DNA of 64,000 nucleotides from Escherichia phage SUT_E420: the sequence record OQ990039; one strand, 5' to 3'. The notes under the pieces were generated by a model. The model was not told the origin of the DNA and ran no database searches. It saw only the letters and a program-made list of their open reading frames with translations. Made by a program: the position numbers and the translations under genes. Below are positions 565 to 61,460 of the stretch, in pieces (positions within the stretch are counted from its first letter, which is position 1; every line of letters begins with the position of its first letter).

Positions 565-2664
565 TTAGGTAAGGCGTTGAATTATAAGTTTAATATTTGG
601 TAAGCATGCTTTCATGCCAATTATATTGCTCATAGAGGATTCTAACCAAATAGAGATATTATTATTTCCATCATTTCTCATATAATATGTTAGAGTATAG
701 TAACCCGTTTGACCTACTGATCCCGGCAACCCAGATACCCAGTACGGAGTTGGAGTATACCCAGCAGCCTGTAATTTACAAGCNNNNNNNNNNNNNNNNN
801 NNNNNNNNNNNNNNNNNNNNNNNNNNNNNNNNNNNNNNNNNNNNNNNNNNNNNNNNNNNNNNNNNNNNNNNNNNNNNNNNNNNGTTTGACCTACTGATCC
901 CGGCAACCCAGATACCCAGTACGGAGTTGGAGTATACCCAGCAGCCTGTAATTTACAAGCATTTACTACAGTACCTTTAATAGTAAAAAATGGTACATAT
1001 TCTCCTGCAGGTAGGGACAATATTTGGTGAAGTTTTTTATCGATAGTATTGCCACCCATTCTGAACCTACTATCTCCATATTCGGCGCCTTTAGATAGCA
1101 TTTCCGTAGGATTAAAGCAGCCAATACCTCCTGCAGACAACCATGTGTCATCCAGGAACTCCATAGTACATACAATTGCGCCATTTCTACTACTATTAAG
1201 ATCTAGTCCCACGGTGCCAACATGCACGGAACCATTACCCTGAAATACTATGTTACCAGATAGTACAGTACTTCCGCTACCACCTAGAAGTCTTAAAGGT
1301 AAAAGATTCTCACTCCAAACATCTCCATAATTGCTGCCTATTTTTGGAGGATTACTAGAAACATACCAAGATGCTGAAGGTAAAAAGTTATAAATACTAA
1401 CTACATTAGTATTTAAACCACCAACGTTACCACCTTTAATACTTGGTGCGTTATTGCTTTCCGTAGTGGGCAGCCCAAATGTTGCTATGCCAGAAACTCC
1501 AGTAGAGGGGGCACCCATACTCAAGTTACACCCAACATCACGAAAATCAGCTCTGCTACCTACATTAAAGTTTTTCTCAACAAAGTTAATAAACTTCCAT
1601 GACGTATTATTAACATTAACCCCTTTAATAATAAACTCTCTTGGGCTAAGTTTAATATCATTGCCAGTAAATAGCCCACTATCAATACTGTATCCTGAGC
1701 CATTGTATACTAGATTGGTAACATACCAAGTAATTTTAGATGGATAAATACCGAGGTGCTCACTATATATACCTATAGGCCCATTAGCAGCATCATTCGG
1801 ATCACCCATACTTTCCCAATAAGCATAGTTAGTGGGATCAGCACGTGCGAAACCTACAGAGTACTTAGGAGCCGAGGGATTGCTAGGGTTATCTATAAAG
1901 TTAAGAGCCCCAGAACTAGAAGCACCGTGCACAGCTCCAGCAGTGGTATAGTTAGGCCCTTCCATACCGTAAAGAACTCTATTGCAAGATCTACCACGAA
2001 CATATATGGCGTTAAATCCAAAGTTTCTAGCTCCGGGATGCCTAACGTAGTCGCTAGGGATAGTTATGGATCCTGAGCTGGGCACAATATATCCTGAACC
2101 ATCCCAGGCAGACTTATAAAGAGCGGCACCACCTAAGTACATTGCACTAGATGCAAATCCTCTACGCCCACTAAAGGCGCCAAACATATGCTGACATCCA
2201 GTACCATCTCTAAGCTTCTGGGGAATAGTTCCACTAGTTCCACTGTTAAAATAACCTACATCAAGGGATAGATCAGCACTAGCTGTTATTTGTGTTTTTA
2301 AGCCACCCTGGGACATGACCTGTGGATTTATAATTCCGTACGCCTTAGCACCTACCCCCATAGACATACCGGATAACATATGTCTAGAGCCATCTGAGAA
2401 CTCAATCTCCGTCAGCACAACTCTATTAGGATCATTATTATGTAACTGGGTAATTCTGCTAGGCATATCAGACCAGTAGTAATCTCCAGCACCTTGATCT
2501 AGCCTTAACCCTGTGGAGTGAGTTTCTGTTATGATAACATGGGGCATATCTGAATGGAATATGGTCTGAGAGTCAGGATTAATATGTTGATTAGTATCTC
2601 CGCCACTACCCCTGCGCAGAGAGAGTATAGATTTATTATTTAGCTTGCCAGCGAAAAAACTCAT
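565..2664 (-). CDS. oad: receptor-binding tail protein, pb5-like
   Basis: 699-aa Gly-rich ORF divergent from llp-type lipoprotein gene; includes about 59 artefactual residues from N-gap 782-883 plus duplicated flank, so true length is near 640 aa. Confidence 0.75.
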
Positions 2665-5356: not shown

Positions 5357-5704
5357 TTATTTGATAATAATCTGCATCTGGTACGGCGTTAATTCACCGT
5401 TTACGGGTAGATTATTATCACTTAGCCACTCATAAAAAGCGCTATCGTCATCAAAAGGAACAACATCATTATCACGGTAATCTACGGAAATAACGCCATC
5501 AGTATTAGTTTTAGCGGCTAGGATAGGCCCGAAGCTGTAAACTTTATCAGATTCCATTTCATCCGGTGAAATNNNNNNNNNNNNNNNNNNNNNNNNNNNN
5601 NNNNNNNNNNNNNNNNNNNNNNNNNNNNNNNNNNNNNNNNNNNNNNNNNNNNNNNNNNNNNNNNNNNNNNNNGAAGTGAGCACGGCTAAACATGATATGA
5701 TCAT
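5357..5704 (-). CDS. hypothetical protein (N-terminus obscured by N-gap)
   Basis: ORF runs into N-gap 5572-5672; annotated N-terminus is not trustworthy. Confidence 0.4.
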   Translation of the reverse strand: MIISCLAVLTXXXXXXXXXXXXXXXXXXXXXXXXXXXXXXXXXXISPDEMESDKVYSFGPILAAKTNTDGVISVDYRDNDVVPFDDDSAFYEWLSDNNLPVNGELTPYQMQIIIK

Positions 5705-15136: not shown

Positions 15137-15745
15137 TTACCAATCGTTAACAACGCCGGAGAACTCAGAAGCAAAAACCTTTTCAAATTTCTCTGCAATT
15201 TCAGGATGATCTTTGCAGATCAGCTCAATACATGCTTCTGGAGTCATTCCTTCATCTTCAGGATCACCGTAGTATTTGTCCCAAAGATCATCAGGGATGA
15301 TATGCTCCGCCAAATCTTGGAAAGAGATTAACTGATAACGTTCTGCTTCCTCAGCGATAAGAATTTCGCACAGATCTTTATCTATATCGCTACGATAATC
15401 CGCAATTAATAGGGCATTGCAAGCATGGCATTCCCAGACCATCAAACGTTCAGAGATAGGATTAGACTTATCTTGAACGTAAGACTGGAACAAGGTTCGG
15501 AAAGTTGCCTTAACTTGTTCNNNNNNNNNNNNNNNNNNNNNNNNNNNNNNNNNNNNNNNNNNNNNNNNNNNNNNNNNNNNNNNNNNNNNNNNNNNNNNNN
15601 NNNNNNNNNNNNNNNNNNNNAAACGTTCAGAGATAGGATTAGACTTATCTTGAACGTAAGACTGGAACAAGGTTCGGAAAGTTGCCTTAACTTGTTCAAA
15701 CTTATCTGCTGCTGCGAAAACTAGAGCTTTATCAACTTTGTTCAT
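15137..15745 (-). CDS. hypothetical protein (inflated by N-gap 15521-15620 and duplicated flank)
   Basis: 202-aa ORF contains X run and repeated 25-aa segment; true length about 143 aa. Confidence 0.45.
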   Translation of the reverse strand: MNKVDKALVFAAADKFEQVKATFRTLFQSYVQDKSNPISERXXXXXXXXXXXXXXXXXXXXXXXXXXXXXXXXXXEQVKATFRTLFQSYVQDKSNPISERLMVWECHACNALLIADYRSDIDKDLCEILIAEEAERYQLISFQDLAEHIIPDDLWDKYYGDPEDEGMTPEACIELICKDHPEIAEKFEKVFASEFSGVVNDW

Positions 15746-15912: not shown

Positions 15913-16503
15913 TCAGACATTTATATCACCACGCAATACAGCAGCTACGTCTTCCCCTATTTGTAATACCTCGCCGGTAGTACAATTAACTACTCTATCG
16001 TAACTAGTAAACTTACCAGACACAATATCTTCTAGTGGAATTGGAGTTTTACTCATTTCAAATGAGACATTGATATAACGTGGATCACGTAGAGAAGTAG
16101 TATGTACGTGTCCGTGAATATTTAGTTTGCCACGAAGTTCATTAGGGTGCAAAGGGCAGTGAGATAGCCAAAACTTTTTGCCACCTCCAGTCTGTTTACC
16201 TAGAGCCTGAATATCGTCATAAACTTCCGCCAAGTCCCTAATGCTCAGTCCCTGACGTTCTGCATCATGATTACCCATAATCAGTTGATTAGGAACATTG
16301 TGGATAACCGACTTTAATTTAGCTAGACCTTCACGACCTACTGCAATATCTCCTAGCAAAATAAGTTTTGTTCGTTTACCAATATGCTTGGACAAAGTAT
16401 CTAGAATATACTCATCGTGCTCTTTCATGTTCTTAAACCACGGACGGAAACGTAACGCTCCAGGGTGGTCTAGGTGCAAGTCTGACCAGAATTTAACTTT
16501 CAT
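15913..16503 (-). CDS. calcineurin-like metallophosphoesterase
   Basis: 196 aa; DLHLD, GNHD and GHVH metal-binding motifs. Confidence 0.7.
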   Translation of the reverse strand: MKVKFWSDLHLDHPGALRFRPWFKNMKEHDEYILDTLSKHIGKRTKLILLGDIAVGREGLAKLKSVIHNVPNQLIMGNHDAERQGLSIRDLAEVYDDIQALGKQTGGGKKFWLSHCPLHPNELRGKLNIHGHVHTTSLRDPRYINVSFEMSKTPIPLEDIVSGKFTSYDRVVNCTTGEVLQIGEDVAAVLRGDINV

Positions 16504-19673: not shown

Positions 19674-19885
19674 GGCTTTCTCCTATCTTCAAAAANNNNN
19701 NNNNNNNNNNNNNNNNNNNNNNNNNNNNNNNNNNNNNNNNNNNNNNNNNNNNNNNNNNNNNNNNNNNNNNNNNNNNNNNNNNNNNNNNNNNNNNNCTAGA
19801 CTTATTTTCCAGATACCTAGCAGCATCATAGTGAATAGTTCTGCAAACATGGCTTTCTCCTATCTTCAAAAATTATTAAAGCCCC

Positions 19886-25090: not shown

Positions 25091-25664
25091 GTTCTTCTCT
25101 CCGACGTTTAGATTCTTTCATCATATGAGCTGCTACAACTTCGTGGTAGTAGTCATTAATGTTATCTTCTGGCAAGAAATGCTTAATAGTCTCTAGCTGA
25201 CAAATAACTCGATGAAGATGGTTATTTGGTAGACACAATTTTATGCCTGCAACAAATCCAGAGAAGCCTGGAACACTGAACATGGGTTGGGCTTCTACTC
25301 TACCTTCAGGGTTGATATTAAGCTCAATTGAGATACCCATTTTCATACTATAAAGCTGGCAATATTCTCCATTACCAGACCTTGACCNNNNNNNNNNNNN
25401 NNNNNNNNNNNNNNNNNNNNNNNNNNNNNNNNNNNNNNNNNNNNNNNNNNNNNNNNNNNNNNNNNNNNNNNNNNNNNNNNNNNNNNNGTTGATATTAAGC
25501 TCAATTGAGATACCCATTTTCATACTATAAAGCTGGCAATATTCTCCATTACCAGACCTTGACCAAACAGTGAAATCCTCATCAATTTGATCTTGGATTT
25601 CTGTAATTGCAAATTTAATTCTAGGGTCTAAATTATTCATCTTCACCTTCAAAGTCGCAATCAT
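25068..25664 (-). CDS. hypothetical protein (inflated by N-gap 25388-25487)
   Basis: 198-aa ORF with X run and duplicated segment; true length about 139 aa. Confidence 0.45.
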   Translation of the reverse strand: MIATLKVKMNNLDPRIKFAITEIQDQIDEDFTVWSRSGNGEYCQLYSMKMGISIELNINXXXXXXXXXXXXXXXXXXXXXXXXXXXXXXXXXXSRSGNGEYCQLYSMKMGISIELNINPEGRVEAQPMFSVPGFSGFVAGIKLCLPNNHLHRVICQLETIKHFLPEDNINDYYHEVVAAHMMKESKRRREEREKTKHQ

Positions 25665-27066: not shown

Positions 27067-27394
27067 ACATTTCTCCTAAAACTTGGGAGATAAANNNNNN
27101 NNNNNNNNNNNNNNNNNNNNNNNNNNNNNNNNNNNNNNNNNNNNNNNNNNNNNNNNNNNNNNNNNNNNNNNNNNNNNNNNNNNNNNNNNNNNNNTGCTGA
27201 CCACCTTCGATTTGAGGGGCGACTTCCACTTTGACTTCACGGAAGGCTTCGGGATCGAATTGTGGTGTGATACCTTCTAGATCTTCAACTAGAACTTTCT
27301 GTTTAAGTTCACCGTTGTCGGAGTATAGCTGAATAATCTGATTTTCATGAACAAGGTTAATTACGCCAGATTTAAGATTTTGATATGCTTTCAT
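26987..27394 (-). CDS. hypothetical protein (interrupted by N-gap 27095-27194)
   Basis: ORF crosses N run; C-terminal part unreliable. Confidence 0.35.
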   Translation of the reverse strand: MKAYQNLKSGVINLVHENQIIQLYSDNGELKQKVLVEDLEGITPQFDPEAFREVKVEVAPQIEGGQXXXXXXXXXXXXXXXXXXXXXXXXXXXXXXXXXXFISQVLGEMCGSSIKTPSPATCEEQPQEVLDSLST

Positions 27395-37894: not shown

Positions 37895-38071
37895 CCTTAA
37901 ATACAGAAAANNNNNNNNNNNNNNNNNNNNNNNNNNNNNNNNNNNNNNNNNNNNNNNNNNNNNNNNNNNNNNNNNNNNNNNNNNNNNNNNNNNNNNNNNN
38001 NNNNNNNNNNGAGTATGGTTCTAAACCAAAAACAAAAGCCCCTGCCGAAAGGTAAGGGGCTTTTTCTTTTG

Positions 38072-38139: not shown

Positions 38140-39087
38140 TTACTTGTTACGCATATCCATGATCATTTGACCATCGTAGCCAGTACCTACCACAGTCTGA
38201 GGTACACCACCTTGATACTTCTGAGCACGGATCATTTCAACTTCCAGTTGTTTCCAACGAATCATTTCAGGAGTAATGGTACGTTGCAATGCGGCGTTAG
38301 CTTCAGCTTCTTTCTTAGCTGCGTACAGTTTAGCATCTGCGTCACGTTCATTAGCAATAGCTTGGTTGTTACGAGCTTCACGATCTGCTTCTGCTTGTTT
38401 AACTTTTTGCTGTGCTTCCTGTTCAACGCGAGCAAGTTCAGCTTTCGCAGCATTAACTTGCTCTTCACGAACTTTGGTATTCTGTACCTGTTCCATGATT
38501 ACTGGCGGCAAGGTAATATCCTGAAGGAATACCTGCTTAACTGTGTAACCATATGGGCGCGCATACTCTTCAACTTCCTGTTGAATTGCAGTTTGCAATT
38601 GAGCCTGAATTTTAGCATCAAATAAATCTTGTGCTTTAGGTACAGACTTACCAAACTCACGAATAGTAGACAGTAATTTTTCAGTTACATACTTGTCTAG
38701 TGCCTGATCCTGAGTACCTGCGTTAATACGGTTAATCGGTGCTTTAGAACCATCAAACTGCAACATAACAGTCAGGTCAACAGTGGATTTAAACTTATCC
38801 TGGCTAGGAACCTGAAGTTTATCTAATTTTACAGCAATATCTTTTGTACTAAAAGTATCGAAAGATGCAAACGGGTTTACAAGATGGAAGCCCGGCAATA
38901 CTGGATTAGGGTCTACTTTACCCAGGAATGTTTGGGTTTTAACCGTACCATCAGAAACAATAGTATATGAATTAAAAGCTAGGATTAAACCTGCTAAACC
39001 AACTACAGCACCAATACCCCAACGTTTAATAGTACGAATTACTTTCTGCTCAGAAGTCAGTTCTTTCATATTTTTAGTAGCAAACAT
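38140..39087 (-). CDS. SPFH/band-7 (stomatin/prohibitin/HflK-C-like) membrane protein
   Basis: 315 aa; N-terminal TM WGIGAVVGLAGLILAF, band-7-like core, long Ala/Gln/Glu-rich coiled coil. Confidence 0.65.
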   Translation of the reverse strand: MFATKNMKELTSEQKVIRTIKRWGIGAVVGLAGLILAFNSYTIVSDGTVKTQTFLGKVDPNPVLPGFHLVNPFASFDTFSTKDIAVKLDKLQVPSQDKFKSTVDLTVMLQFDGSKAPINRINAGTQDQALDKYVTEKLLSTIREFGKSVPKAQDLFDAKIQAQLQTAIQQEVEEYARPYGYTVKQVFLQDITLPPVIMEQVQNTKVREEQVNAAKAELARVEQEAQQKVKQAEADREARNNQAIANERDADAKLYAAKKEAEANAALQRTITPEMIRWKQLEVEMIRAQKYQGGVPQTVVGTGYDGQMIMDMRNK

Positions 39088-53548: not shown

Positions 53549-55423
53549 ATGAATCGCAATGAAGAACTAAAGTATAAAGAAATGCAGGCGTTAATTAGAA
53601 ACTGCAAAGAGATTATCGAAGGGTCAGCAGATGAAGAGCTGCTGTTTAATAATGCTAATAAACCCTCAGAACGTTTCCCTACACAAAGGGATATGCTTGC
53701 AGGTGAATTGAGTAAGTATCTGATTCTAGAAGAAATGCCAATTCAGATTCGAAATGCTCATATGATTGGGGATATTCATTTCCATGATGCTGATTATGCT
53801 GCATTAGGCATGACTAACTGTTGTCTGGTAGCTTTGGAAGATATGTTGAAGAATGGTATGAAGGTTGGTAATGCTGAAATTAGCACTCCAAACTCTATCA
53901 CTACTGCGGCGGCTATTACTGCTCAGATTATCACTCAGGTTAGCTCCCATCAGTATGGTGGTACTTCTGTAGACCGCCTTGATGAAGTATTAGCCCCTTA
54001 TGTTCGTAAATCATATGACAAAAATCATGCGTTTGCAAAACGTTGGACTAAGGATGAAGCCAAAGCATCCGTAATGGCTACGGAGATGACTGAAAAGGAA
54101 GTCTATGACGCTTGTCAGGGTTTAGAATATGAAATCAATACCATGTTCAACTCTAACGGTCAGAGTCCATTTATTACCTTTGGTTTTGGTCTAGGAACTT
54201 CTTGGGAAGCACGTCTAGTACAGAAAGCAATACTGAAAGTACGCATGGATGGTTTAGGTATCAATAAACGTACAGCTATCTTCCCGAAACTGGTATTTGT
54301 ACTTCGTGATGGTGTTAACATGAAACCAGGAGATGTTAATTATGACATCAAGAAGTTAGCTATGAAATGTACTGCTGAACGTATGTATCCAGATTATATC
54401 AGCTATGACAAAGTTGTAGAAGTTACTGGAGACTATAAAGTTTCTATGGGCTGTCGTTCATTCCTAGCTGCTACAGAAGATGGTGAAACTGCCGGTCGTA
54501 ATAACTTAGGTGTTGTTTCTGTAAACTTGCCTAGAATTGCTATCGAAGCTGAAGGAAATATTGACCTATTTTTTGATTTGCTTGAACTGCGTGTGGATAC
54601 AGCGTTAAAAGCATTGGAGTGGAGAGTTGATCGCTTAAAATACATCCAAGCTAAAGCTGCACCCATCCTCTATATGTCAGGAGCCTTTGGGTTACGCTTG
54701 GAGCCTGATGAATATGTATTCGATCATTTCTATAATCGTGCTTCTGTATCTCTAGGGTATATTGGCTGCCATGAAATGCTACAGTTCATGTTTGGCAAAG
54801 ATATAGACACAATGTCCGAGACCTGCATCAAGTTTGTTCAGCGTGTATTGCAGTACATGCGGGATAGAGTCGATCAGAAGAAGGAAGAAACTAAGTTAGG
54901 TTATAGCCTGTATGCTACACCATCAGAATCCCTATGTGATCGCTTTTGTCGTCTAGACCGTGAATATTTCCCGGAACATGAAGATATTCTGTCCAAAGGA
55001 TACTACACTAACTCTCACCACCTTGATGTGGAACGTAAAGTTGCTCCTAACGTGAAATTTGATTATGAATCTAACTTTACTCCGATTGCTTCTGGTGGGT
55101 GTATTTCCTACGTAGAATTACCGGATATGAAACGATTCCCAGATGCACTGGAATGGGTTATTAATTATGCTGCTAGTAAGGTTCATTACTTCGGTATTAA
55201 TACTCCAGTGGATTCTTGCGGTAAATGTGGATTCTTAGGTGAAACAATAGCATCCGAAGATGGATTTAAGTGCCCTATCTGTGGTAATCATGACCCCGAA
55301 ACTCTTGAAGTAACTCGTCGAGTTTGTGGGTATCTTGGAAATCCGGGTGCTCGTCCATTTAACCCCGGCAAACAGCACGAGGTGATGGGCAGAGTGAAAC
55401 ATCAGGATATTCGAGCTAAATAA
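53549..55423 (+). CDS. nrdD: anaerobic ribonucleoside-triphosphate reductase
   Basis: 624 aa; C-terminal glycyl-radical motif RVCGYLG and Cys cluster CGKCG...CPICG. Confidence 0.8.
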   Translation: MNRNEELKYKEMQALIRNCKEIIEGSADEELLFNNANKPSERFPTQRDMLAGELSKYLILEEMPIQIRNAHMIGDIHFHDADYAALGMTNCCLVALEDMLKNGMKVGNAEISTPNSITTAAAITAQIITQVSSHQYGGTSVDRLDEVLAPYVRKSYDKNHAFAKRWTKDEAKASVMATEMTEKEVYDACQGLEYEINTMFNSNGQSPFITFGFGLGTSWEARLVQKAILKVRMDGLGINKRTAIFPKLVFVLRDGVNMKPGDVNYDIKKLAMKCTAERMYPDYISYDKVVEVTGDYKVSMGCRSFLAATEDGETAGRNNLGVVSVNLPRIAIEAEGNIDLFFDLLELRVDTALKALEWRVDRLKYIQAKAAPILYMSGAFGLRLEPDEYVFDHFYNRASVSLGYIGCHEMLQFMFGKDIDTMSETCIKFVQRVLQYMRDRVDQKKEETKLGYSLYATPSESLCDRFCRLDREYFPEHEDILSKGYYTNSHHLDVERKVAPNVKFDYESNFTPIASGGCISYVELPDMKRFPDALEWVINYAASKVHYFGINTPVDSCGKCGFLGETIASEDGFKCPICGNHDPETLEVTRRVCGYLGNPGARPFNPGKQHEVMGRVKHQDIRAK

Positions 55424-55430
55424 GCTAATC

Positions 55431-55465
55431 AGCCGGGTTGCTAGTCGACCTGGCTTTTATTTTAT
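55431..55465 (+). terminator. candidate rho-independent terminator after nrdD
   Basis: Imperfect stem AGCCGGG.../...CCTGGCT followed by TTTTATTTTATTT. Confidence 0.45.
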
Positions 55466-55494
55466 TTGCTTTCAGCCAAAAATTTATATATAAT
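55466..55494 (+). promoter_or_regulatory. T5-type promoter (-35 TTGCTT, 17 bp, -10 TATAAT)
   Basis: Followed by AGATTTATAAATTTGAGAGGAG leader, closely resembling T5 early promoters. Confidence 0.7.
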
Positions 55495-55522
55495 AGATTT
55501 ATAAATTTGAGAGGAGAAAGGT

Positions 55523-55903
55523 ATGGAATTAAAGCCCTATATAGTTGAGTCTACATGTGGTGGTTTCCATCTTGGCGTAGACGATCTTAGAGAAGCTATT
55601 TTTGCATCTACTGGAGATTATTCCCATCTAGAGGGTATTGGATATTCATCAATTATTGGTGATTGGGTAGAAACAAATCTAGATGTATCACCATATAACT
55701 CAGATTGCTTGTTTGACGAGGATGAGGATGAAATAAAGTATGATATTGAATTTGTTTATAATAGAGTATTAAAAGTATACCAACGTAATCCCGAGGGATA
55801 CGAAGATATTACTAAAGGTATTAAACAGTATCTTAAAGATGTATACTATAATTTTTCTGATGAAGACCTAGAAACAGTTGCAGTGGAGTTTAATAATGGC
55901 TAA
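55523..55903 (+). CDS. hypothetical acidic protein
   Basis: 126-aa ORF. Confidence 0.5.
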   Translation: MELKPYIVESTCGGFHLGVDDLREAIFASTGDYSHLEGIGYSSIIGDWVETNLDVSPYNSDCLFDEDEDEIKYDIEFVYNRVLKVYQRNPEGYEDITKGIKQYLKDVYYNFSDEDLETVAVEFNNG

Positions 55904-56102
55904 GAATGTAAAACATCTTAAATATCGCTTAATTTACAATGGACGTATGGAAACAGAAGACCTGGCCCAATTAGCTATTAATTCTAACGAGGTTACAGTG
56001 CGTGCGCTGGCAATTGAAAAGTTGCGTGCCTCTTATGAAAATCGTGTTATGGAACTAGAGGAGAAACTTTATGGCATTCTCGAAGCCGATGCTACCAGAT
56101 AA
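55878..56102 (+). CDS. hypothetical protein
   Basis: 74-aa ORF, probable start at MAKNVKH. Confidence 0.45.
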   Translation: MQWSLIMAKNVKHLKYRLIYNGRMETEDLAQLAINSNEVTVRALAIEKLRASYENRVMELEEKLYGILEADATR

Positions 56103-56292
56103 GGGTTTAAACGCCGCTTTGGAAAACGCATTAATGCAGCACTGGGAAACTGGCTATAAGGATGGTGTTGAATCCTGCGCTACTATGCTAGAAGTTATTG
56201 CTAATACCTTAATGGAGAAAGGCAATAAAGAATTAGCTGAGCTATTAGACAGTATTGGGCAAAACTTCAGAGAACAGGTGAAAAATGCGTAG
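56071..56292 (+). CDS. hypothetical protein
   Basis: 73-aa ORF. Confidence 0.45.
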   Translation: MAFSKPMLPDKGLNAALENALMQHWETGYKDGVESCATMLEVIANTLMEKGNKELAELLDSIGQNFREQVKNA

Positions 56293-57100
56293 ATTAATTG
56301 TTATTAGCGGTGCAGGTTTGAGTGTTGAAAGTGGTGTACGAGCTTTTCGTACTGATACTGCTAGTGGTAAAGCATTGTGGGATGATTATGATCTAGAAGA
56401 AGTATGTAATATTCATGCCTTTCGTGGTAATTTTTATCATAAAACCCATATGTTTTACAACAAGCGTCGTGAAGAGCTAAAAACTGTTGAACCCAATCTT
56501 GCGCATTTGCGTATCGGTGAATGGTATAAACAATATCCAGGTCAAGTAGTAAACTTGACTACCAACGTTGATGACCTTATTGAGCGTTCTGGCGTTCCAC
56601 ATAATGACATTCTACACATTCATGGATATTTAAAAGAGGTTGTTGTAGCTGATAGCTACAATAGTAGCAATAAACGGATTATTGATGTAGGATACAATTC
56701 TATTGATCCAGATGATTATAAATGGGTTAAACCTAATGTAATCTTCTTTGGAGAGCATGCTCCAGCATATGCGGAGATGTACAATGTTTTTGATGGTATT
56801 ACCAGTCAAGATATGATCATTGTGGTTGGTTGCTCTAACCAAGTAATTAACTTCTACTGGGAATTATTTCCTGTTCTTAATTTGACTGCTGCCAAGCTAA
56901 TGGTTGTTAACTACTATGATAGTGCCCTAGCGGCGGAACCGAGCTATCAAGGTATGACTCGTAGTGAGATGTACCAGCTGGAAGAACGCGGTATCCCTTA
57001 CTGGGGTAAAGGTGCGGTAGATGCTTTCAGTGATCCTGATTTTATTGCTCGTGTAGAAGCTCATTTAGGGGGTAGACCTTATGTGTCAGGAAATAAGTAA
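56285..57100 (+). CDS. Sir2-family NAD-dependent protein (deacylase/ADP-ribosyltransferase fold)
   Basis: 271 aa; GAGLSVESGVRAFR (NAD-binding GAG..SG.P.FR), TTNVDDL and HIHG motifs; no zinc-ribbon Cys pairs seen. Confidence 0.7.
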   Translation: MRRLIVISGAGLSVESGVRAFRTDTASGKALWDDYDLEEVCNIHAFRGNFYHKTHMFYNKRREELKTVEPNLAHLRIGEWYKQYPGQVVNLTTNVDDLIERSGVPHNDILHIHGYLKEVVVADSYNSSNKRIIDVGYNSIDPDDYKWVKPNVIFFGEHAPAYAEMYNVFDGITSQDMIIVVGCSNQVINFYWELFPVLNLTAAKLMVVNYYDSALAAEPSYQGMTRSEMYQLEERGIPYWGKGAVDAFSDPDFIARVEAHLGGRPYVSGNK

Positions 57101-57593
57101 TACTCCAATTATTTTTCTAGACATTGATGGGGTGCTCAATTCGAGCATCTCCCACTATCATGCACCTGATGATGAAAAGATTTTCTTTGGAAGTGATTGG
57201 GTTTTCAAACCGCTTCTCAAGGCTTTTCAGGACTTTATTCGTCCTTCTCCAATAATGATTGTTGGAGTATCATCTTGGTTCTCTGTCAGAAATGAGATGG
57301 AGAACGTTCAGATTATGACCGGATTAGGCCTTATCGATCGTTTTCTTGGTACAACGGATTTTACTGGTGGTGGATTATCTAGGGGTAATTCTGTTCTTCG
57401 CTTCGTTGAAAAGCATAAGCTCAAACATTGGTGTGTGCTTGATGATGCGGGTGCTATGATGTATCAGTATCCAACGGTTATAGTCAACGGTAGGACTGGT
57501 ATAAATCTTCAAGATTTAAAAGCTGTTAGCTATATGCTAGAATTTAGCCCAGATCTTGAAATGTGTAAATCCTTACAACAATTTAAGGTGTAA
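57081..57593 (+). CDS. HAD-superfamily hydrolase
   Basis: 170 aa; FLDIDGVL motif I at N-terminus, later LDDAG; start overlaps Sir2 gene end. Confidence 0.6.
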   Translation: MCQEISNTPIIFLDIDGVLNSSISHYHAPDDEKIFFGSDWVFKPLLKAFQDFIRPSPIMIVGVSSWFSVRNEMENVQIMTGLGLIDRFLGTTDFTGGGLSRGNSVLRFVEKHKLKHWCVLDDAGAMMYQYPTVIVNGRTGINLQDLKAVSYMLEFSPDLEMCKSLQQFKV

Positions 57594-57595
57594 AT

Positions 57596-58024
57596 ATGTT
57601 CAATAATGTATTCTCTAAAGAAGCTAACCCAATTTTGGTTAACTTTTGGCGTACTCTTCCAGCTAGCCTGTATAATGAGGCTATTAACTCTTTGAAAATA
57701 TGGTGTGAGAATAACGAAATCTACTTTGCTTTTAAAGATGATATTGATGAAGCCCCCTGTATTGGTTTAATTGTTCAGGTAGAGGAGGGTCTTGAAGAGA
57801 TTGTCGGCTGGAAAGAGTTAGATGAAATGGGCTTAGTTTTTGCGTTAAACTATAAGCTGTTTATGCCTGCTAAGCATCGCCTCGTTGTTAACTATAAAAC
57901 TAGTGAATCTCCTGGTTTTCAAGTTAATGAACGTTACGGTTGGTCTTACTCACCAGAAGAAGTGAATGATGGTATCCAAAAACTTCGCCGTTTCGGGTAT
58001 ATGATCCCAGGTTTAACTGCTTAA
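57596..58024 (+). CDS. hypothetical protein, paralog A
   Basis: 142 aa; similar to next ORF (PCIG core, ELD..E..MGL, FALNYKLF, C-terminal PGL). Confidence 0.5.
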   Translation: MFNNVFSKEANPILVNFWRTLPASLYNEAINSLKIWCENNEIYFAFKDDIDEAPCIGLIVQVEEGLEEIVGWKELDEMGLVFALNYKLFMPAKHRLVVNYKTSESPGFQVNERYGWSYSPEEVNDGIQKLRRFGYMIPGLTA

Positions 58025-58033
58025 GGAGGCAGA

Positions 58034-58423
58034 ATGGAACAAGTATATTGGCGTCAGATTGACCCTAGTTTGGTGAAACGTGCGGAGAAGCTGCTACAAC
58101 GTTGGTTGGGGGTAAGACAAGCCTCCTTCACTTTTCCTGAGCAGCAAATAGATGATCCATGCATTGGCGTTTTCCTGTCTGGATACGCCAGGGAATGGGA
58201 ACTGGATTGGAATGAGTTGTCTGCTATGGGTTTAATTGTTGCCCTAAATTTCTCTTTGTTCCATCCACGTGGTTTTGCCATATGTCGTGTGCCGGATGAT
58301 GGTTGTTCGCCCCATCTTTTACAGGTGGAAAATGATATTTGGGAGTACACTCCAGATATTCTCAAAGAAGCTAAAGAACAATTAAACCGTGTTGGGATAT
58401 ATGTTCCGGGATTAAATGACTAA
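58034..58423 (+). CDS. hypothetical protein, paralog B
   Basis: 129 aa; tandem duplicate of preceding ORF. Confidence 0.5.
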   Translation: MEQVYWRQIDPSLVKRAEKLLQRWLGVRQASFTFPEQQIDDPCIGVFLSGYAREWELDWNELSAMGLIVALNFSLFHPRGFAICRVPDDGCSPHLLQVENDIWEYTPDILKEAKEQLNRVGIYVPGLND

Positions 58424-58449
58424 TGATTTTTATTAGCTGAACTCTGATT

Positions 58450-58475
58450 ACCGAGTCATTTTGGCTCGGTTTTAT
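58450..58475 (+). terminator. rho-independent terminator
   Basis: Stem ACCGAG/CTCGGT followed by TTTTA. Confidence 0.5.
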
Positions 58476-59045: not shown

Positions 59046-61460
59046 GTGTTCTCAATCCTACAAGGTCATGCAGGATTTCATCGCGATTTAGCCACAGGCA
59101 ATTGGCGAGAAGTTAAAGCAGAAGACTATCTTTTTGCTAAAAGATTTTCCTCAAAGCATCCTGAAGGTAAACCAGCTTCAATGCCCTTCAAGTTTGATGT
59201 AATTGATGAAGTTGATCCTCAAACCCTAGTAGAAATGCTTCCTCTTATGAGACGTTTAACGTCTGACCCTCATATCGTTGCGGTACGAGGTCGATGTCTT
59301 ACACCTAAAAATAATGTGCGACGTAAGAAGGGCAACTTTAATGTATCTAACCCAAGTCATATAATTGCAATGGACGTGGATGGTATTGTAGATACAGGTG
59401 GTTGCAACAAGTTTGATCTTGTTGGCATGGCTCGACATATTATTAGAATGTTAAATAGTATTAGTGAGGATATGTTTCCTCTTGATGCAGGGTTTATCGC
59501 TCATGCATCGTCTTCGGCTGGGCTNNNNNNNNNNNNNNNNNNNNNNNNNNNNNNNNNNNNNNNNNNNNNNNNNNNNNNNNNNNNNNNNNNNNNNNNNNNN
59601 NNNNNNNNNNNNNNNNNNNNNNNNATGTTAAATAGTATTAGTGAGGATATGTTTCCTCTTGATGCAGGGTTTATCGCTCATGCATCGTCTTCGGCTGGGC
59701 TAAAACCAGGTATCCGAATGCACTTAATACTAGAATCTAATGTTAAAGTAACTCAGGGTCAAATCAAATTCTTATTTACATCTATCAACGAAAGTAGTAG
59801 ACAAAAGTATGGCTTTGATATTGCCGACTTAGCTTATTACTCTTCCGTACAGCTCCACTATTTTGCAGATCCGTTATTTACCGATGGTATAGTAGATCCG
59901 TTTAAAGCGGAGGGTGCTTCACGTCTGGTATTTGTTAAGGGTTCTAAAGTAAATTTACCCAATAATCTGGTTGACTATGAAACAACTAGAGGTGAGTTTA
60001 AGGAGGAGTTTTACTCTTTACTCGATCAAATTAAAGGTAAAAAAGCTGCCTCTGATAAAGTAGAGGAAACTATCAGCGAACTAGAAGAAGCTGAGGATGG
60101 AGTGTATCTACGTATCATACCTAAACTCTATCACAGAGCCTTAGAGGATGGTGTTGATTTTGCATGGCTAGAAAAAGAAATCCGTCCAGCCTTATCAGAA
60201 TATATTGCAACTAAAGATAACAGTCGCAATATTCAAGATTACTTTAATAACGGTCGTAAACAGGCTCTGAAAGCATTTGTTAATAATTCTAAACGTGATA
60301 TACCTGATGTTTTAAAGGGTATTCCACTTAAAAAGCTAGAAACTAATTCTCTAGAAACTGATAACTTCTTGAAATTAAATACTGTACCACCAGAAGGTTA
60401 TATGACTTTTGTAAAAGCAAGTCTAGGTACAGGTAAAACTACAGCGGTTGTGCGTTGGTTAGATTCAGGAGTTATTAAAGGTAATTTCTTAGCAATTACC
60501 AATACTAGAGCACTGGTATCTTCAAATGCCAAGAAATTTAGTGCAGGACAATATGATAAGTCTGTAGATATGCTTAATTTTAAGCGGGGTGCTATTGACC
60601 GTATGTCCACAACTATTCACTCTTTGCATAAATTCAAGAGTTTTATTGGTCAAATTGATGCAATCTTTATCGATGAATGTGATGCAGTAATGAATGACCT
60701 ATTATTCGCCCCGGTTGTTAAACAACGTCGCGAGTGTATTCAGGTTCTTCGGGATATTCTTGCAACTGCAAAAATCATTATATTATCTGATGGGGATATT
60801 AGTGCAGAAACAATTGAAGCATATGGTTCTTTGATTGAGTTTGATAAACCAGTAGCATTTTATAACCATCACCGTAAAATGCTATCAAAAGCTCATGCTT
60901 ATGAGTTCCCGGATGAATCCAGTATTTGGGTTGCACTTCAGACTTCTCTAGAGATGGGTGAGAAATCTATCCTAGTATCTGACTGTGGGCCGGATGAACT
61001 GAATGAGAAGGGTATGGCATTGCGTCGTAATACGGGTGCGTTAGTTAAGGAAATCCACTCAAANNNNNNNNNNNNNNNNNNNNNNNNNNNNNNNNNNNNN
61101 NNNNNNNNNNNNNNNNNNNNNNNNNNNNNNNNNNNNNNNNNNNNNNNNNNNNNNNNNNNNNNNGATATTAAGAAGTGTTCAAATGTCACTATCAAACCAT
61201 TCATAGAAGCTCTGAAAGGTAAGAAGAAAGATTTCTTCCTTAAAACAGGTCAGAGTGCTAACCCAAAATATGCCAGAATGTATCTTGGTATGATGGGTAT
61301 TGGTAAGGATATGAACACTGAAAATATTGTAGACTGGTACAGAACCTATTGTAAAATCGAGTGTATGCCAATCCCCTATAAGTTTATGACTGATGAGGAG
61401 AAACATATGCATGATGAAGCAATGGCAGAGCTAGGTGCTAGAAATGACAGTGAAGAATAA
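59046..61460 (+). CDS. P-loop NTPase, helicase or replication-initiator-like
   Basis: ORF 58968-61460 trimmed to GTG after ACAGGAG; Walker A SLGTGKTT and Walker B IFIDECDAV; contains two N-gaps so length is inflated. Confidence 0.55.
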   Translation: MFSILQGHAGFHRDLATGNWREVKAEDYLFAKRFSSKHPEGKPASMPFKFDVIDEVDPQTLVEMLPLMRRLTSDPHIVAVRGRCLTPKNNVRRKKGNFNVSNPSHIIAMDVDGIVDTGGCNKFDLVGMARHIIRMLNSISEDMFPLDAGFIAHASSSAGXXXXXXXXXXXXXXXXXXXXXXXXXXXXXXXXXXMLNSISEDMFPLDAGFIAHASSSAGLKPGIRMHLILESNVKVTQGQIKFLFTSINESSRQKYGFDIADLAYYSSVQLHYFADPLFTDGIVDPFKAEGASRLVFVKGSKVNLPNNLVDYETTRGEFKEEFYSLLDQIKGKKAASDKVEETISELEEAEDGVYLRIIPKLYHRALEDGVDFAWLEKEIRPALSEYIATKDNSRNIQDYFNNGRKQALKAFVNNSKRDIPDVLKGIPLKKLETNSLETDNFLKLNTVPPEGYMTFVKASLGTGKTTAVVRWLDSGVIKGNFLAITNTRALVSSNAKKFSAGQYDKSVDMLNFKRGAIDRMSTTIHSLHKFKSFIGQIDAIFIDECDAVMNDLLFAPVVKQRRECIQVLRDILATAKIIILSDGDISAETIEAYGSLIEFDKPVAFYNHHRKMLSKAHAYEFPDESSIWVALQTSLEMGEKSILVSDCGPDELNEKGMALRRNTGALVKEIHSXXXXXXXXXXXXXXXXXXXXXXXXXXXXXXXXXXDIKKCSNVTIKPFIEALKGKKKDFFLKTGQSANPKYARMYLGMMGIGKDMNTENIVDWYRTYCKIECMPIPYKFMTDEEKHMHDEAMAELGARNDSEE

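What the first reader, a model, noticed from the sequence alone, without database searches (positions are those of the whole stretch)
56285..58423. Sir2-like gene coupled to a HAD hydrolase and two tandem paralogs
A Sir2-fold protein lacking obvious zinc-ribbon cysteines is translationally coupled to a HAD-family hydrolase (FLDIDGVL) and followed by two paralogous small proteins. The arrangement suggests an NAD-consuming or ADP-ribose-processing module, possibly host takeover or interference with NAD-dependent defences.
Basis: inference. Interest (0 to 1): 0.6.

Follow-up and report, generated by a model that had tools for sequence, protein, structure and literature searches.

The report
Known T5-phage sirtuin–phosphatase early operon
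This is the conserved early operon of T5-like phages that encodes a zinc-less sirtuin and a small HAD phosphatase, a pairing already described in 2022 and predicted, but never shown, to repair cut RNA using NAD+; the two small paralogues next to it probably belong to nucleotide metabolism instead.

Summary
The window comes from a Tequintavirus (T5-like phage). Coordinates 56285-58423 hold four tightly packed genes: a 271-aa sirtuin, a 170-aa HAD_SAK_2 phosphatase whose start overlaps the sirtuin's end by 20 nt, and two DUF7415 paralogues (31% identical).

The sirtuin keeps the NAD+ pocket, the catalytic His113 and the class III Tyr58/Arg61 pair. It has no zinc-ribbon cysteines, as in the whole phage clade. 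The HAD protein keeps all catalytic motifs and models as a cap-less HAD fold.

None of this is new. T5 has carried this Sir2 annotation in its genome record, and Iyer et al. 2022 described this sirtuin plus 'Swiss-army-knife' HAD neighbourhood using phage SP15. They predicted NAD+-dependent, KptA-like RNA 2'-phosphate removal. I found no experimental test.

My neighbourhood survey supports that prediction indirectly. The same sirtuin clade sits beside RNA ligase, cREC and polynucleotide kinase genes in Vequintavirinae-like phages. But T5-likes have no RNA ligase or kinase homologue, and both proteins are acidic.

The DUF7415 genes look independent of the pair. They persist where Sir2 and HAD are deleted, lie between nrdD and nrdG in T4-like phages, and are fused to dNTP enzymes.

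Verdict: real, ordinary and already described; function still untested.

The parts
55431..55455 (+). Terminator-like hairpin after nrdD; upstream boundary of the operon
   Evidence: 10-bp stem followed by a T run. The same place is annotated as a terminator followed by early promoter T5P31 in T5 AY587007 and as a terminator in Lindwurm.
55523..55903 (+). orfA: first gene of the operon, 126 aa, very acidic (pI 4.07, net charge about -19), phrog_11748, function unknown
   Evidence: A homologue (41% identity, E=2e-12) lies between HAD and Sir2 in the rearranged contig L014. It is present in only part of the T5-like loci.
55896..56102 (+). orfB: small ORF, phrog_5236, function unknown
   Evidence: The start follows the Lindwurm annotation mapped onto the window.
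56071..56292 (+). orfC: small ORF, phrog_5827, function unknown; overlaps the sirtuin start
56285..57100 (+). Zinc-less phage sirtuin (homologue of the T5 gene annotated cobb / T5.102 Sir2-like). Key features: GAG at residues 9-11, F21-R22, Y58/R61/R62, T92-T93-N94-V95-D96, catalytic H113 (codon 56621-56623), F154-F155-G156-E157, N209
   Evidence: Pfam SIR2 4e-24; phrog_2162 4.6e-119; E. coli CobB 1S5P 4e-17 with aligned motifs. Invariant and near-invariant residues in 25 clade members. NCBIfam CobB models are hit far below their cut-offs. No PADLOC hit.
57067..57072 (+). Shine-Dalgarno-like AGGGGG, 8 nt upstream of the HAD start and inside the sirtuin ORF
   Evidence: Sequence read directly. 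An RBS is annotated at the equivalent place in Lindwurm.
57081..57593 (+). Cap-less HAD phosphatase of family HAD_SAK_2 (Aeh1ORF302c-like in T5). Motif I D14/D16, motif II S64/S65, motif III R101, motif IV D121/D122
57596..58024 (+). DUF7415 paralogue a (T5 ORF098 / T5.106), function unknown; probably not part of the Sir2-HAD pair
   Evidence: Pfam PF24187 1.2e-36; paralogy; distribution, context and fusions.
58034..58423 (+). DUF7415 paralogue b (T5.107, Aeh1ORF298c-like), function unknown. The conserved family core is residues ~56-110
58450..58475 (+). Terminator-like hairpin ACCGAG-9 nt-CTCGGT followed by TTTTAT; downstream boundary of the operon
   Evidence: Read from the sequence. The simple scan missed it because the loop exceeds 8 nt. 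Terminators are annotated at the same place in T5 and Lindwurm.

Best explanation
The locus is one early transcription unit of a T5-like phage. Two of its genes form an accessory enzyme pair.

The first is a zinc-less sirtuin of a phage-specific clade derived from class III (CobB/SIRT5-like) sirtuins. The second is a cap-less HAD phosphatase of the HAD_SAK_2 family.

Shown here:
- Both proteins keep every catalytic residue of their superfamilies.
- The pair is co-conserved in Tequintavirus and Epseptimavirus.
- The pair is dispensable for growth of at least one phage.
- The same sirtuin clade sits in RNA-repair gene clusters in other phage families.

Inferred, following Iyer et al. 2022: the sirtuin works like Tpt1/KptA.
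1. A 2'-phosphate on damaged or re-ligated RNA is held by the anion-binding Tyr58/Arg61 pair. It attacks C1'' of NAD+ and expels nicotinamide.
2. The ADP-ribose 2''-OH, activated through His113, attacks the phosphate.
3. This releases RNA with a clean 2'-OH, plus ADP-ribose 1'',2''-cyclic phosphate.
4. The HAD enzyme removes a leftover phosphate, either from the RNA 2'/3' end or from the ADP-ribose-phosphate by-product.

The purpose would be to reverse damage done to host and phage tRNAs by RNA-cutting defences. Joining of the ends would be left to host enzymes.

The two DUF7415 paralogues are most likely a separate, deoxynucleotide-metabolism-associated function that shares the operon.
For: Identity and activity:
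- Pfam SIR2 and HAD_SAK_2 score well above their cut-offs.
- CobB is the best PDB match. H113 aligns to CobB H147, and Y58/R61 align to Y92/R95.
- G9, G11, S16, G17, Y58, R62, N94, H113 and N209 are invariant, and R61, F21, R22, D96 and E157 are >=90% conserved, in 25 sirtuins at 30-85% identity.
- D14, D16, S64, S65, R101 and D121 are invariant in 24 HADs.
- The HAD model (pLDDT 95) best matches cap-less HADs. Several of these act on macromolecular substrates, namely the Scp1/Fcp1 CTD phosphatases and UBLCP1.

Linkage:
- The genes overlap by 20 nt, with a Shine-Dalgarno-like run upstream of the HAD start.
- They lie in a single early operon bounded by a promoter and terminators.
- All 28 Tequintavirus/Epseptimavirus-type IMG/VR loci have Sir2 followed by HAD.
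- Contig L014 keeps HAD-orfA-Sir2 contiguous in a different order.
- In DT57C one deletion removed parts of both genes at once.

RNA-repair context of the same clade (49-64% identity):
- Phosphoesterase, RNA ligase and polynucleotide kinase (plus cREC in most) lie immediately upstream of Sir2 in 11 Vequintavirinae-like loci.
- The same is seen in the annotated phages Mydo and HeinrichReichert.
- RaK2 has Sir2-Nudix-cREC.
- Some distant HAD_SAK_2 genes lie next to cREC (L045, L077) or near RNA ligase + kinase + phosphoesterase (L049/L050, L007).

Published prediction for exactly this neighbourhood: PMC9503650 section 3.7.3, prototype SP15. SP15 is a Tequintavirus with the same operon.
Against: - I found no experimental evidence.
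- T5-like phages show no RNA ligase 1 homologue. Of 718 phage records with one, only 15 are Salmonella phages, and none of the 40 sampled rows is a T5-like genome of about 110 kb. That search did not enumerate every record.
- The 64-kb window has no RNA ligase, cREC, polynucleotide kinase or Nudix homologue. A full repair pathway is therefore missing.
- A 3'-phosphatase would work against host RtcB, which needs a 3'-phosphate.
- Both enzymes are acidic, which is unusual for RNA-binding enzymes. The sirtuin clade has pI 4.8-5.8 and the HAD median is pI 5.15.
- None of about 60 distant HAD relatives has a sirtuin within 6 kb.
- Sugarlandvirus keeps the sirtuin without the HAD.
- About 16 sirtuin loci show none of the tested partner genes within 6 kb.
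- In Serratia phage ChuuTotoro the HAD is coupled to NARP1-like genes, not to RNA-repair genes.
- The clusters in Vequintavirinae may simply be islands of accessory genes.
Confidence: 0.4

Rival explanations
1. The sirtuin is an ordinary NAD+-dependent protein lysine deacylase. Because it keeps the class III Tyr/Arg pair, it would prefer succinyl- or malonyl-type groups. The phage would use it early to re-tune host or phage proteins. The HAD gene would be an unrelated neighbour, or would process O-acyl-ADP-ribose-derived products.
For: - The best sequence matches are bona fide deacylases: E. coli CobB 4e-17, archaeal Sir2, and SIRT5 1e-11. NCBIfam CobB-type models are the only family hits.
- Y58/R61 align to CobB Y92/R95, catalytic His is present, and the FGE loop is conserved.
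- An acidic enzyme would suit basic protein substrates.
- This is the reading used in database annotation and in PMC5107563.
Against: - Scores are far below the NCBIfam equivalog cut-offs (99 bits against 243).
- The zinc module that shapes the peptide cleft in canonical sirtuins is absent in the whole clade.
- The canonical Gln of TQNID is replaced by Thr, Ala or Ser.
- No neighbouring gene in any lineage points to protein modification. RNA-end and ADP-ribose-processing genes recur instead.
Confidence: 0.2
2. The pair handles small NAD+/ADP-ribose metabolites rather than RNA. The HAD enzyme would be an ADP-ribose-phosphate phosphatase, a non-homologous analogue of the Macro-domain Adpp of NARP1-AP. 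The sirtuin would make or use an ADP-ribose derivative. Together they would be part of the NAD+-centred arms race.
For: - In Serratia phage ChuuTotoro the HAD_SAK_2 gene (about 40% identity) overlaps the start of a Prs-like gene, which is followed by an NAPRTase-family gene. In a related 152-kb JGI contig one 116-aa ORF separates the HAD from the same two genes.
- The NAPRTase-family protein is 40% identical over 97% of its length to Namat of phage Bas63, the NARP1 enzyme.
- Namat- or Adps-like genes lie within 6 kb of several distant HADs (L058, L071, L073, L075).
- They also lie within about 1-6 kb of the sirtuin in at least 9 loci, including RaK2.
- A phosphatase added to NARP1 is an experimentally proven counter-defence strategy.
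- Epseptimavirus T5-likes carry NARP3.
Against: - This window carries no Adps, Namat, NadR or PnuC homologue, even at the syntenic NARP3 site.
- A sirtuin consumes NAD+, which is counter-productive against NAD+-depleting defences.
- The proven Adpp is a Macro domain, not a HAD.
- The cap-less HAD fold is more typical of enzymes acting on large substrates.
- Conserved catalytic His and Tyr/Arg argue for a transfer reaction on a specific anionic acceptor rather than plain NAD+ hydrolysis.
Confidence: 0.15
3. There is no dedicated module. The genes are merely neighbours in the nucleotide-metabolism part of the T5 early region (nrdA/B, nrdD, phoH, thyA, frd). The HAD would be a nucleotide phosphatase, the DUF7415 proteins dNTP-complex accessories, and the sirtuin an independent gene.
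For: - The operon starts directly after nrdD, inside the nrdA/nrdB/thyA/frd region.
- DUF7415 lies between nrdD and nrdG in Klebsiella T4-like phages. It is fused to thymidylate kinase and to dATP/dGTP pyrophosphohydrolase.
- HAD_SAK_2 genes in T4-like phages lie in early regions near dUTPase or thymidylate synthase.
- The HAD is absent from Sugarlandvirus, where the sirtuin stays.
- Family-wide collinearity alone could explain the co-conservation.
Against: - L014 keeps HAD and Sir2 together after rearrangement and after loss of the DUF7415 genes.
- Translational coupling runs along the whole chain, including through the small ORFs in T5.
- The cap-less fold and the Pfam family of the HAD are not those of known nucleotidases.
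Confidence: 0.15

Closest known systems
Phage sirtuin + 'Swiss-army-knife-like' HAD neighbourhood, prototype Escherichia phage SP15 (Iyer, Burroughs, Anantharaman & Aravind 2022, Viruses 14:1977, PMC9503650)
   Same: It is the same locus. SP15 is a Tequintavirus with nrdD, three small ORFs, Sir2, HAD and two DUF7415 genes in the same order. Its DUF7415 gene b is 96.9% identical to the window's. The paper predicts a KptA-like role for the sirtuin and an end- or by-product-processing role for the HAD.
   Different: The window's phage lacks the small ~60-aa ORF(s) between Sir2 and HAD, so the two genes overlap directly. In the passages I read, the paper does not mention the DUF7415 genes, and its prediction is untested.
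Class III sirtuins: E. coli CobB (PDB 1S5P) and human SIRT5
   Same: Best sequence matches. Shared features are the Rossmann NAD+ site (GAGxS, FR, N-x-D), the catalytic His and the Tyr-x-x-Arg pair that binds the carboxylate of succinyl- or malonyl-lysine (the role of that pair is established knowledge; the alignment is).
   Different: No zinc-ribbon cysteines. Gln of TQNID is replaced by Thr. Scores are far below the NCBIfam CobB cut-offs. The gene context is RNA- and ADP-ribose-related, not protein-modification-related.
Tpt1/KptA RNA 2'-phosphotransferase (ADP-ribosyltransferase fold)
   Same: This is the proposed working analogy: NAD+-dependent removal of an RNA 2'-phosphate, giving nicotinamide and ADP-ribose 1'',2''-cyclic phosphate. 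In Vequintavirinae-like phages the sirtuin sits beside ligase, kinase and a predicted cyclic phosphodiesterase. This mirrors yeast Trl1 + Tpt1.
   Different: The fold is unrelated, so this is not family membership. No activity data exist. T5-likes lack the ligase and kinase partners.
Cap-less (C0) HAD phosphatases: MDP-1 and the Scp1/Fcp1 CTD phosphatases; functionally the phosphatase domain of T4 polynucleotide kinase-phosphatase
NARP1-AP (Adps-Adpp-Namat), the phage NAD+ reconstitution pathway with an ADPR-1''-phosphate phosphatase (bioRxiv 10.64898/2026.01.28.702374)
   Same: A phosphatase gene attached to Adps/Namat genes. ChuuTotoro-type phages have HAD_SAK_2-Adps-Namat.
   Different: Adpp is a Macro domain, not a HAD. 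The window has no Adps or Namat.
Defence sirtuins (ThsA, DSR1/2, SIR2-HerA, SIR2-pAgo), which are NADases
   Same: Sirtuin fold. Lack of a zinc ribbon is, from my own knowledge, also reported for these; I did not test that here.
   Different: No PADLOC model matches the phage protein. There are no sensor or partner domains. It is phage-encoded and expressed early.

Membership tests
Sirtuin superfamily (Pfam SIR2, PF02146) | Profile match above the curated threshold | tested here: met
   86 bits against a cut-off of 24, covering profile positions 1-178 of 180.
Sirtuin superfamily (Pfam SIR2, PF02146) | NAD+-binding motifs (GAGxS, FR, xNxD) and catalytic histidine | tested here: met
   G9-A10-G11, F21-R22, N94-V95-D96 and H113 align to CobB and are invariant or >=90% conserved in 25 clade members. 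The Gln before Asn is Thr.
Sirtuin superfamily (Pfam SIR2, PF02146) | Cys4 zinc-ribbon module | tested here: not met
   No Cys between H113 and K149 in the window protein or in any of 25 homologues. Zinc-less phage sirtuins were noted before (PMC5107563).
Class III sirtuin deacylases (CobB/SIRT5) | Tyr-x-x-Arg acyl-carboxylate-binding pair | tested here: met
   Y58 and R61 align to CobB chain residues Y53/R56, which are Y92/R95 in full-length numbering. Y58 is invariant and R61 is >=90% conserved.
Class III sirtuin deacylases (CobB/SIRT5) | Equivalog-level similarity to CobB (NCBIfam cut-offs) | tested here: not met
   Best hit is 99 bits against a cut-off of 243. The prot_deacyl_CobB model gives 88.7 against 320.
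Class III sirtuin deacylases (CobB/SIRT5) | NAD+-dependent lysine deacylase activity | not testable with these tools
   Needs an enzyme assay.
Phage 'RNA-repair' sirtuin clade of Iyer et al. 2022 | Phage-encoded sirtuin next to a SAK-type HAD phosphatase (SP15 type), with no adjacent Macro domain | tested here: met
   The HAD_SAK_2 gene overlaps the sirtuin gene. None of the seven operon proteins matches a Macro domain in Pfam. SP15 has the same operon.
Phage 'RNA-repair' sirtuin clade of Iyer et al. 2022 | Same clade as the sirtuins linked to RNA ligase, cREC and kinase (V5/Mydo) and to Nudix/cREC (jumbo phages) | tested here: met
   62% identity to the Mydo sirtuin, 56-57% to Vequintavirus and 32% to RaK2. 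The neighbours were verified by Pfam and in IMG/VR.
Phage 'RNA-repair' sirtuin clade of Iyer et al. 2022 | RNA 2'-phosphotransferase activity | not testable with these tools
   This is a prediction only. I found no experimental paper.
HAD superfamily, family HAD_SAK_2 (PF18143) | Profile match and the four HAD catalytic motifs | tested here: met
   71.9 bits against 27.5. D14, D16, S64, S65, R101 and D121 are invariant and D122 is >=90% conserved in 24 homologues.
HAD superfamily, family HAD_SAK_2 (PF18143) | Rossmannoid HAD fold without a cap | tested here: met
Tpt1/KptA (ADP-ribosyltransferase fold) | ART fold with the Arg-His-Arg-Arg catalytic tetrad | tested here: not met
   The protein is a Rossmann-fold sirtuin. 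Any similarity is in the proposed reaction only.
Defence-associated Sir2 NADases | Match to defence-system Sir2 profiles (PADLOC) | tested here: not met
   No hit at E<=0.01 for any of the seven operon proteins, apart from one irrelevant weak hit for orfA.
NARP1-AP phosphatase Adpp | Macro domain encoded within an Adps-Namat operon | tested here: not met
   The HAD is not a Macro domain. No Adps or Namat homologue is in the window.
DUF7415 (PF24187) | Profile match | tested here: met
   125 and 110 bits against a cut-off of 27. The structure matches only other DUF7415 proteins.

The most novel reading that the evidence does not exclude
The phage sirtuin clade would be the first sirtuin-fold enzyme shown to act on a nucleic-acid phosphate. 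It would be an NAD+-dependent RNA 2'-phosphotransferase that evolved from a class III desuccinylase by re-using its Tyr/Arg anion pocket for phosphate. The HAD_SAK_2 partner would be a non-Macro ADP-ribose-1''-phosphate (or RNA-end) phosphatase. Together they would form a minimal two-enzyme kit that lets T5-like phages undo tRNA damage by host nucleases using host ligases. The sirtuin part was predicted in 2022 but never tested. The anion-pocket rationale and the link between this HAD family and NARP1 operons are my own inferences.
Probability: 0.3. Interest if true: 0.7.

Novelty: already known. Interest (0 to 1): 0.3.

Why it matters
If the predicted activity is real, sirtuins would gain a new substrate class (RNA phosphate). 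T5-like phages, which are widely used in therapy cocktails and as model phages, would gain a defined counter-measure against RNA-cutting defences.

The question is directly testable with two small soluble proteins and existing Tpt1 assays.

As a genome-scan finding, however, it adds little. The genes are annotated in hundreds of genomes and the association is published.

The useful by-products are corrections and leads:
- The HAD gene is widely mislabelled 'Sir2'.
- The DUF7415 genes are mislabelled 'tail protein'.
- DUF7415 appears tied to deoxynucleotide metabolism.
- HAD_SAK_2 genes also attach to NARP1 operons.

Tried and rejected
- Defence-type Sir2 NADase: rejected, no PADLOC match.
- CobB equivalog: rejected, scores far below the NCBIfam cut-offs.
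- A complete phage-encoded RNA-repair pathway in this phage: local tblastn with RNA ligase, cREC, polynucleotide kinase, Nudix, MazG, Adps and Namat queries found nothing in the window. The one exception was a metallophosphoesterase-like match at 16021-16491. RNA ligase 1 homologues were not seen in T5-like genomes.
- NARP3 (NadR/PnuC) in the window: absent, although the syntenic neighbour gene is present.
- Internal repeat in DUF7415, suggested by Pfam's two matched stretches: not supported by hhalign of the two halves (probability 4%).
- A glycyl-radical 'spare part' reading of the DUF7415 C-terminus (RVGIY): dropped. The spacing differs from the RVxGY motif as I recall it, and the model shows that C-terminal segment as coil.
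- Sirtuin next to distant HAD_SAK_2 genes: none in about 60 IMG/VR loci.
- orfA as a constant third partner: rejected, it is present in only part of the T5-like loci.
- The 2016 Burroughs & Aravind paper that defined the SAK HAD families could not be read.


Full report
**What is there**

The window is part of a T5-like phage genome. The 3.1 kb around the finding is 100% identical to Escherichia phages SUT_E1520 and SUT_E520. It is 94-97% identical to many Tequintavirus genomes, and 527 phage records match.

On the + strand, after nrdD (53549-55423) and a terminator-like hairpin (55431-55455), seven tightly packed or overlapping ORFs follow:
- three small ORFs (55523-56292);
- a 271-aa sirtuin (56285-57100);
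- a 170-aa HAD protein (57081-57593);
- two small proteins of 142 aa (57596-58024) and 129 aa (58034-58423).

A hairpin with a T run at 58450-58475 closes the unit. In the T5 record AY587007 the same unit is bounded by 'early promoter T5P31' and a rho-independent terminator. The sirtuin is annotated there as cobb, 'putative transferase'. The unit is therefore one early operon.

**Check of the observation**

- Pfam assigns SIR2 (4e-24), HAD_SAK_2 (9e-20) and DUF7415 twice (1e-36, 9e-32), all far above the curated cut-offs.
- The HAD start codon lies 20 nt inside the sirtuin ORF. An AGGGGG run lies 8 nt upstream of it.
- The two small proteins are paralogues: 31% identity, E=6e-19.
- The sirtuin has no cysteine in the segment that forms the zinc ribbon in CobB.

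One correction is needed. Direct overlap of Sir2 and HAD is a minority state. T5 itself has two ~60-aa ORFs between them (motif DDIFxWxDGSWCYR for the second). Other T5-likes have one to three, each overlapping its neighbours. In the window's lineage these ORFs were deleted. That deletion joined the first four codons of small ORF 1 (MCQE) to the HAD body.

**The sirtuin**

The best solved relatives are E. coli CobB (4e-17), archaeal Sir2 and SIRT5.

The alignment places H113 on the catalytic His of CobB, which is H147 in full-length numbering. It places Y58/R61 on CobB Y92/R95. From established knowledge of SIRT5 and CobB, that Tyr-x-x-Arg pair binds the carboxylate of succinyl- or malonyl-lysine.

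I aligned 25 clade members at 30-85% identity, drawn from T5-likes, Vequintavirinae, phi92-likes, KVP40 and RaK2.
- G9, G11, S16, G17, Y58, R62, N94, H113, G114, K149, P150, F154, G182 and N209 are invariant.
- F21, R22, R61, D96 and E157 are at least 90% conserved.
- The canonical Gln of TQNID is Thr (Ala or Ser in the most distant members).
- None has zinc-ribbon cysteines.

NCBIfam CobB models are hit far below their cut-offs (99 against 243 bits). No PADLOC defence-sirtuin model matches.

The protein is therefore a catalytically intact, zinc-less, phage-specific offshoot of class III sirtuins. It is neither a CobB equivalog nor a defence NADase. Zinc-less phage sirtuins, T5's included, were already noted in 2016 (PMC5107563).

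**The HAD protein**

In 24 homologues at 27-86% identity the following are invariant:
- motif I, FLDIDGVLN (D14, D16);
- motif II, GVSSWF (S64, S65);
- R101;
- D121 of motif IV.

The Pfam family name comes from multidomain 'Swiss Army Knife' RNA-repair proteins.

**Prior knowledge**

Iyer, Burroughs, Anantharaman and Aravind (2022; PMC9503650, section 3.7.3) describe a distinct clade of phage sirtuins in three conserved neighbourhoods:
1. jumbo phages, with 2H, Nudix, cREC and PIN genes;
2. V5/Mydo-type phages, with T4-like RNA ligase, cREC, kinase, MazG and sometimes a calcineurin-like phosphoesterase;
3. [quoted passage not shown]

They propose that the sirtuin acts like KptA and removes RNA 2'-phosphates. 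The neighbours would either prepare RNA ends or process the ADP-ribose cyclic-phosphate by-product.

SP15 is a Tequintavirus with exactly this operon. The finding is therefore already described. I found no experimental follow-up.

**Independent test of the context**

I re-derived the neighbourhoods.

*Annotated genomes.*
- Mydo has metallophosphoesterase, RNA ligase, cREC, AAA_33 kinase and Sir2 in a row.
- HeinrichReichert has polynucleotide kinase, phosphoesterase, RNA ligase, cREC and Sir2.
- RaK2 has Sir2-Nudix-cREC.

*62 IMG/VR loci holding a clade member.*
- 28 are T5-like, with nrdD ... Sir2-HAD-DUF7415 (twice in all but one).
- 3 are Sugarlandvirus-like, with Sir2 and DUF7415 but no HAD.
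- 11 are Vequintavirinae-like, with phosphoesterase, RNA ligase and kinase (plus cREC in most) directly upstream of Sir2, and MazG downstream.
- At least 9 have Adps- and/or Namat-like (NARP1-type) genes about 1-6 kb from the sirtuin. In RaK2 and in L161 the Namat-like gene lies directly upstream.
- About 16 show none of the tested partners.

*About 60 distant HAD relatives in IMG/VR.*
- None has a sirtuin within 6 kb.
- Two are followed by cREC.
- One contig pair (L049/L050) lies near RNA ligase + kinase + phosphoesterase.
- Four lie near Namat or Adps.

*Other contexts.*
- In Serratia phage ChuuTotoro the HAD overlaps the start of a Prs-like gene, which is followed by an NAPRTase-family gene. 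In a related JGI contig a 116-aa ORF lies between them. The NAPRTase-family protein is 40% identical over 97% of its length to Namat of Bas63, the defining NARP1 phage.
- An 8-kb metagenomic T5-like contig (L014) has the order HAD-orfA-Sir2, all overlapping. The replication-origin-binding gene follows, and there is no DUF7415.
- Phage DT57C carries a single deletion that fuses a sirtuin fragment to the C-terminal half of the HAD, while both DUF7415 genes stay intact.

**What this means for the pair**

Sir2 and HAD behave as a linked, dispensable accessory pair within Tequintavirus and Epseptimavirus.

The RNA-repair reading rests on guilt by association in other phage families and on the family of the HAD. 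It is chemically attractive. A sirtuin normally lets an acyl oxygen attack C1' of the nicotinamide ribose, then uses the His-activated 2'-OH to form a 1',2'-cyclic intermediate. A phosphate oxygen held by the Tyr/Arg anion site could follow the same path and end as ADP-ribose 1'',2''-cyclic phosphate, the Tpt1 product. This mechanistic step is my inference.

Several facts weigh against it.
- T5-likes have no RNA ligase 1 homologue.
- The window has no cREC, kinase or Nudix.
- A 3'-phosphatase would oppose host RtcB.
- Both proteins are acidic: sirtuin clade pI 4.8-5.8, HAD median 5.15.

The recurrent neighbours cREC, HAD or phosphoesterase, Nudix, Adps and Namat can all be read as a by-product recycling chain: ADP-ribose cyclic phosphate to ADPR-1''-phosphate to ADP-ribose to NAD+. 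That chain parallels yeast Tpt1-Cpd1-Poa1. It also parallels the recently proven NARP1-AP pathway, whose phosphatase is a Macro domain.

I put the KptA-like reading at about 0.4, a plain protein deacylase at 0.2, a small-molecule NAD/ADPR role at 0.15, and 'mere neighbours in the nucleotide-metabolism region' at 0.15.

**The two paralogues**

DUF7415 is a small, phage-restricted family. An exhaustive profile search of 1.84 billion representatives gave only 158 clusters. The conserved core corresponds to residues ~56-110 of the window proteins.

Outside Demerecviridae the domain occurs as follows:
- as a 77-aa protein between nrdD and nrdG in Klebsiella T4-like phages;
- fused to thymidylate kinase;
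- fused to dATP/dGTP pyrophosphohydrolase.

In T5-likes the genes lie in the operon that starts right after nrdD. They persist in DT57C (no Sir2 or HAD) and in Sugarlandvirus (no HAD), and they are absent from L014. I conclude they are more likely tied to deoxynucleotide metabolism than to the sirtuin. Their actual function stays unknown.

**NAD+ supply in this phage**

Epseptimavirus T5-likes such as TrudiRoth carry NARP3, a NadR-like enzyme plus a PnuC-like transporter. NARP3 has been shown experimentally to rebuild NAD+ (PMC13464706).

The window lacks it, although the flanking gene is present at 92% identity. It also has no NARP1 genes.

**Verdict**

The feature is real and correctly described. 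It is an annotated, published gene neighbourhood in a very well sampled phage group. The interpretation as an NAD+-using module is reasonable, but the specific defence-interference idea and the inclusion of the paralogues are not supported. Interest is modest. The open point is biochemical: whether a sirtuin can act as an RNA 2'-phosphotransferase. It can be settled with standard assays.

Noticed in passing
window 57081-57092; L019 (T5) 2253-2611; L003 4818-4982: Most T5-likes carry one to three overlapping ~60-aa ORFs between Sir2 and HAD (motif DDIFxWxDGSWCYR). A homologue (45% identity, E=1e-15) also follows Sir2 in Sugarlandvirus, which lacks the HAD. The window's phage has lost them: the HAD begins with MCQE, the start of T5 small ORF 1. 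The function is unknown, and the ORF may be a further partner of the sirtuin.
   Followed up: partly
window 57596-58423; L012 3480-3713; proteins P0233, P0270, P0275: The DUF7415 domain lies between nrdD and nrdG in Klebsiella T4-like phages. It is fused to thymidylate kinase and to dATP/dGTP pyrophosphohydrolase (PF04447) in other proteins. This suggests a link to deoxynucleotide metabolism.
   Followed up: partly
L006 6001-9217 (Serratia phage ChuuTotoro); L009 6001-9569: A HAD_SAK_2 gene sits at the head of Adps-like and Namat-like (NARP1-type) genes, overlapping Adps in ChuuTotoro. It could be a non-Macro analogue of the NARP1-AP phosphatase Adpp.
   Followed up: partly
window 55523-55903: orfA is a very acidic 126-aa protein (pI 4.07, net charge about -19; phrog_11748). 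A homologue sits between HAD and Sir2 in contig L014, but the gene is missing from many T5-like loci.
   Followed up: partly
window 53549-55423 compared with loci L023, L024, L029, L035, L038, L040: nrdD occurs as two alleles only ~60% identical at the protein level among T5-like phages whose neighbouring Sir2-HAD genes are 89-99% identical. This suggests allelic replacement by recombination.
   Followed up: no
L013 3480-3752 (phage DT57C); PHROG phrog_18062: A natural deletion fuses a sirtuin fragment to the C-terminal half of the HAD. The PHROG built on such fusions is labelled 'Sir2', so intact HAD genes are annotated 'Sir2 (NAD-dependent deacetylase)' in many records, SP15 included. DUF7415 genes are variously labelled 'tail protein', 'tail tube protein' or 'exonuclease'.
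   Followed up: yes
window 38143-39087 and 27197-27394 (- strand): The window has a 92%-identical homologue of TrudiRoth bas30_0085 but not the adjacent NARP3 genes (NadR-like, PnuC-like). It also has a partial match (66 aa, 85% identity) to a GrcA/YfiD-like 'formate acetyltransferase' small protein, which abuts a masked N run.
   Followed up: partly
window 784-883, 5573-5672, 15521-15620, 19696-19795, 25388-25487, 27095-27194, 37911-38010, 59525-59624, 61064-61163: Nine runs of exactly 100 N interrupt the window. Two fall inside the replication-origin-binding gene downstream of the finding; none falls inside 55431-58475.
   Followed up: yes
window 16021-16491 (- strand): This is the only window match to the RNA-repair query set: a weak metallophosphoesterase similarity (E=1e-5 to the Mydo phosphoesterase). 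From memory it may be the T5 Ser/Thr phosphatase-like gene; I did not examine it.
   Followed up: no
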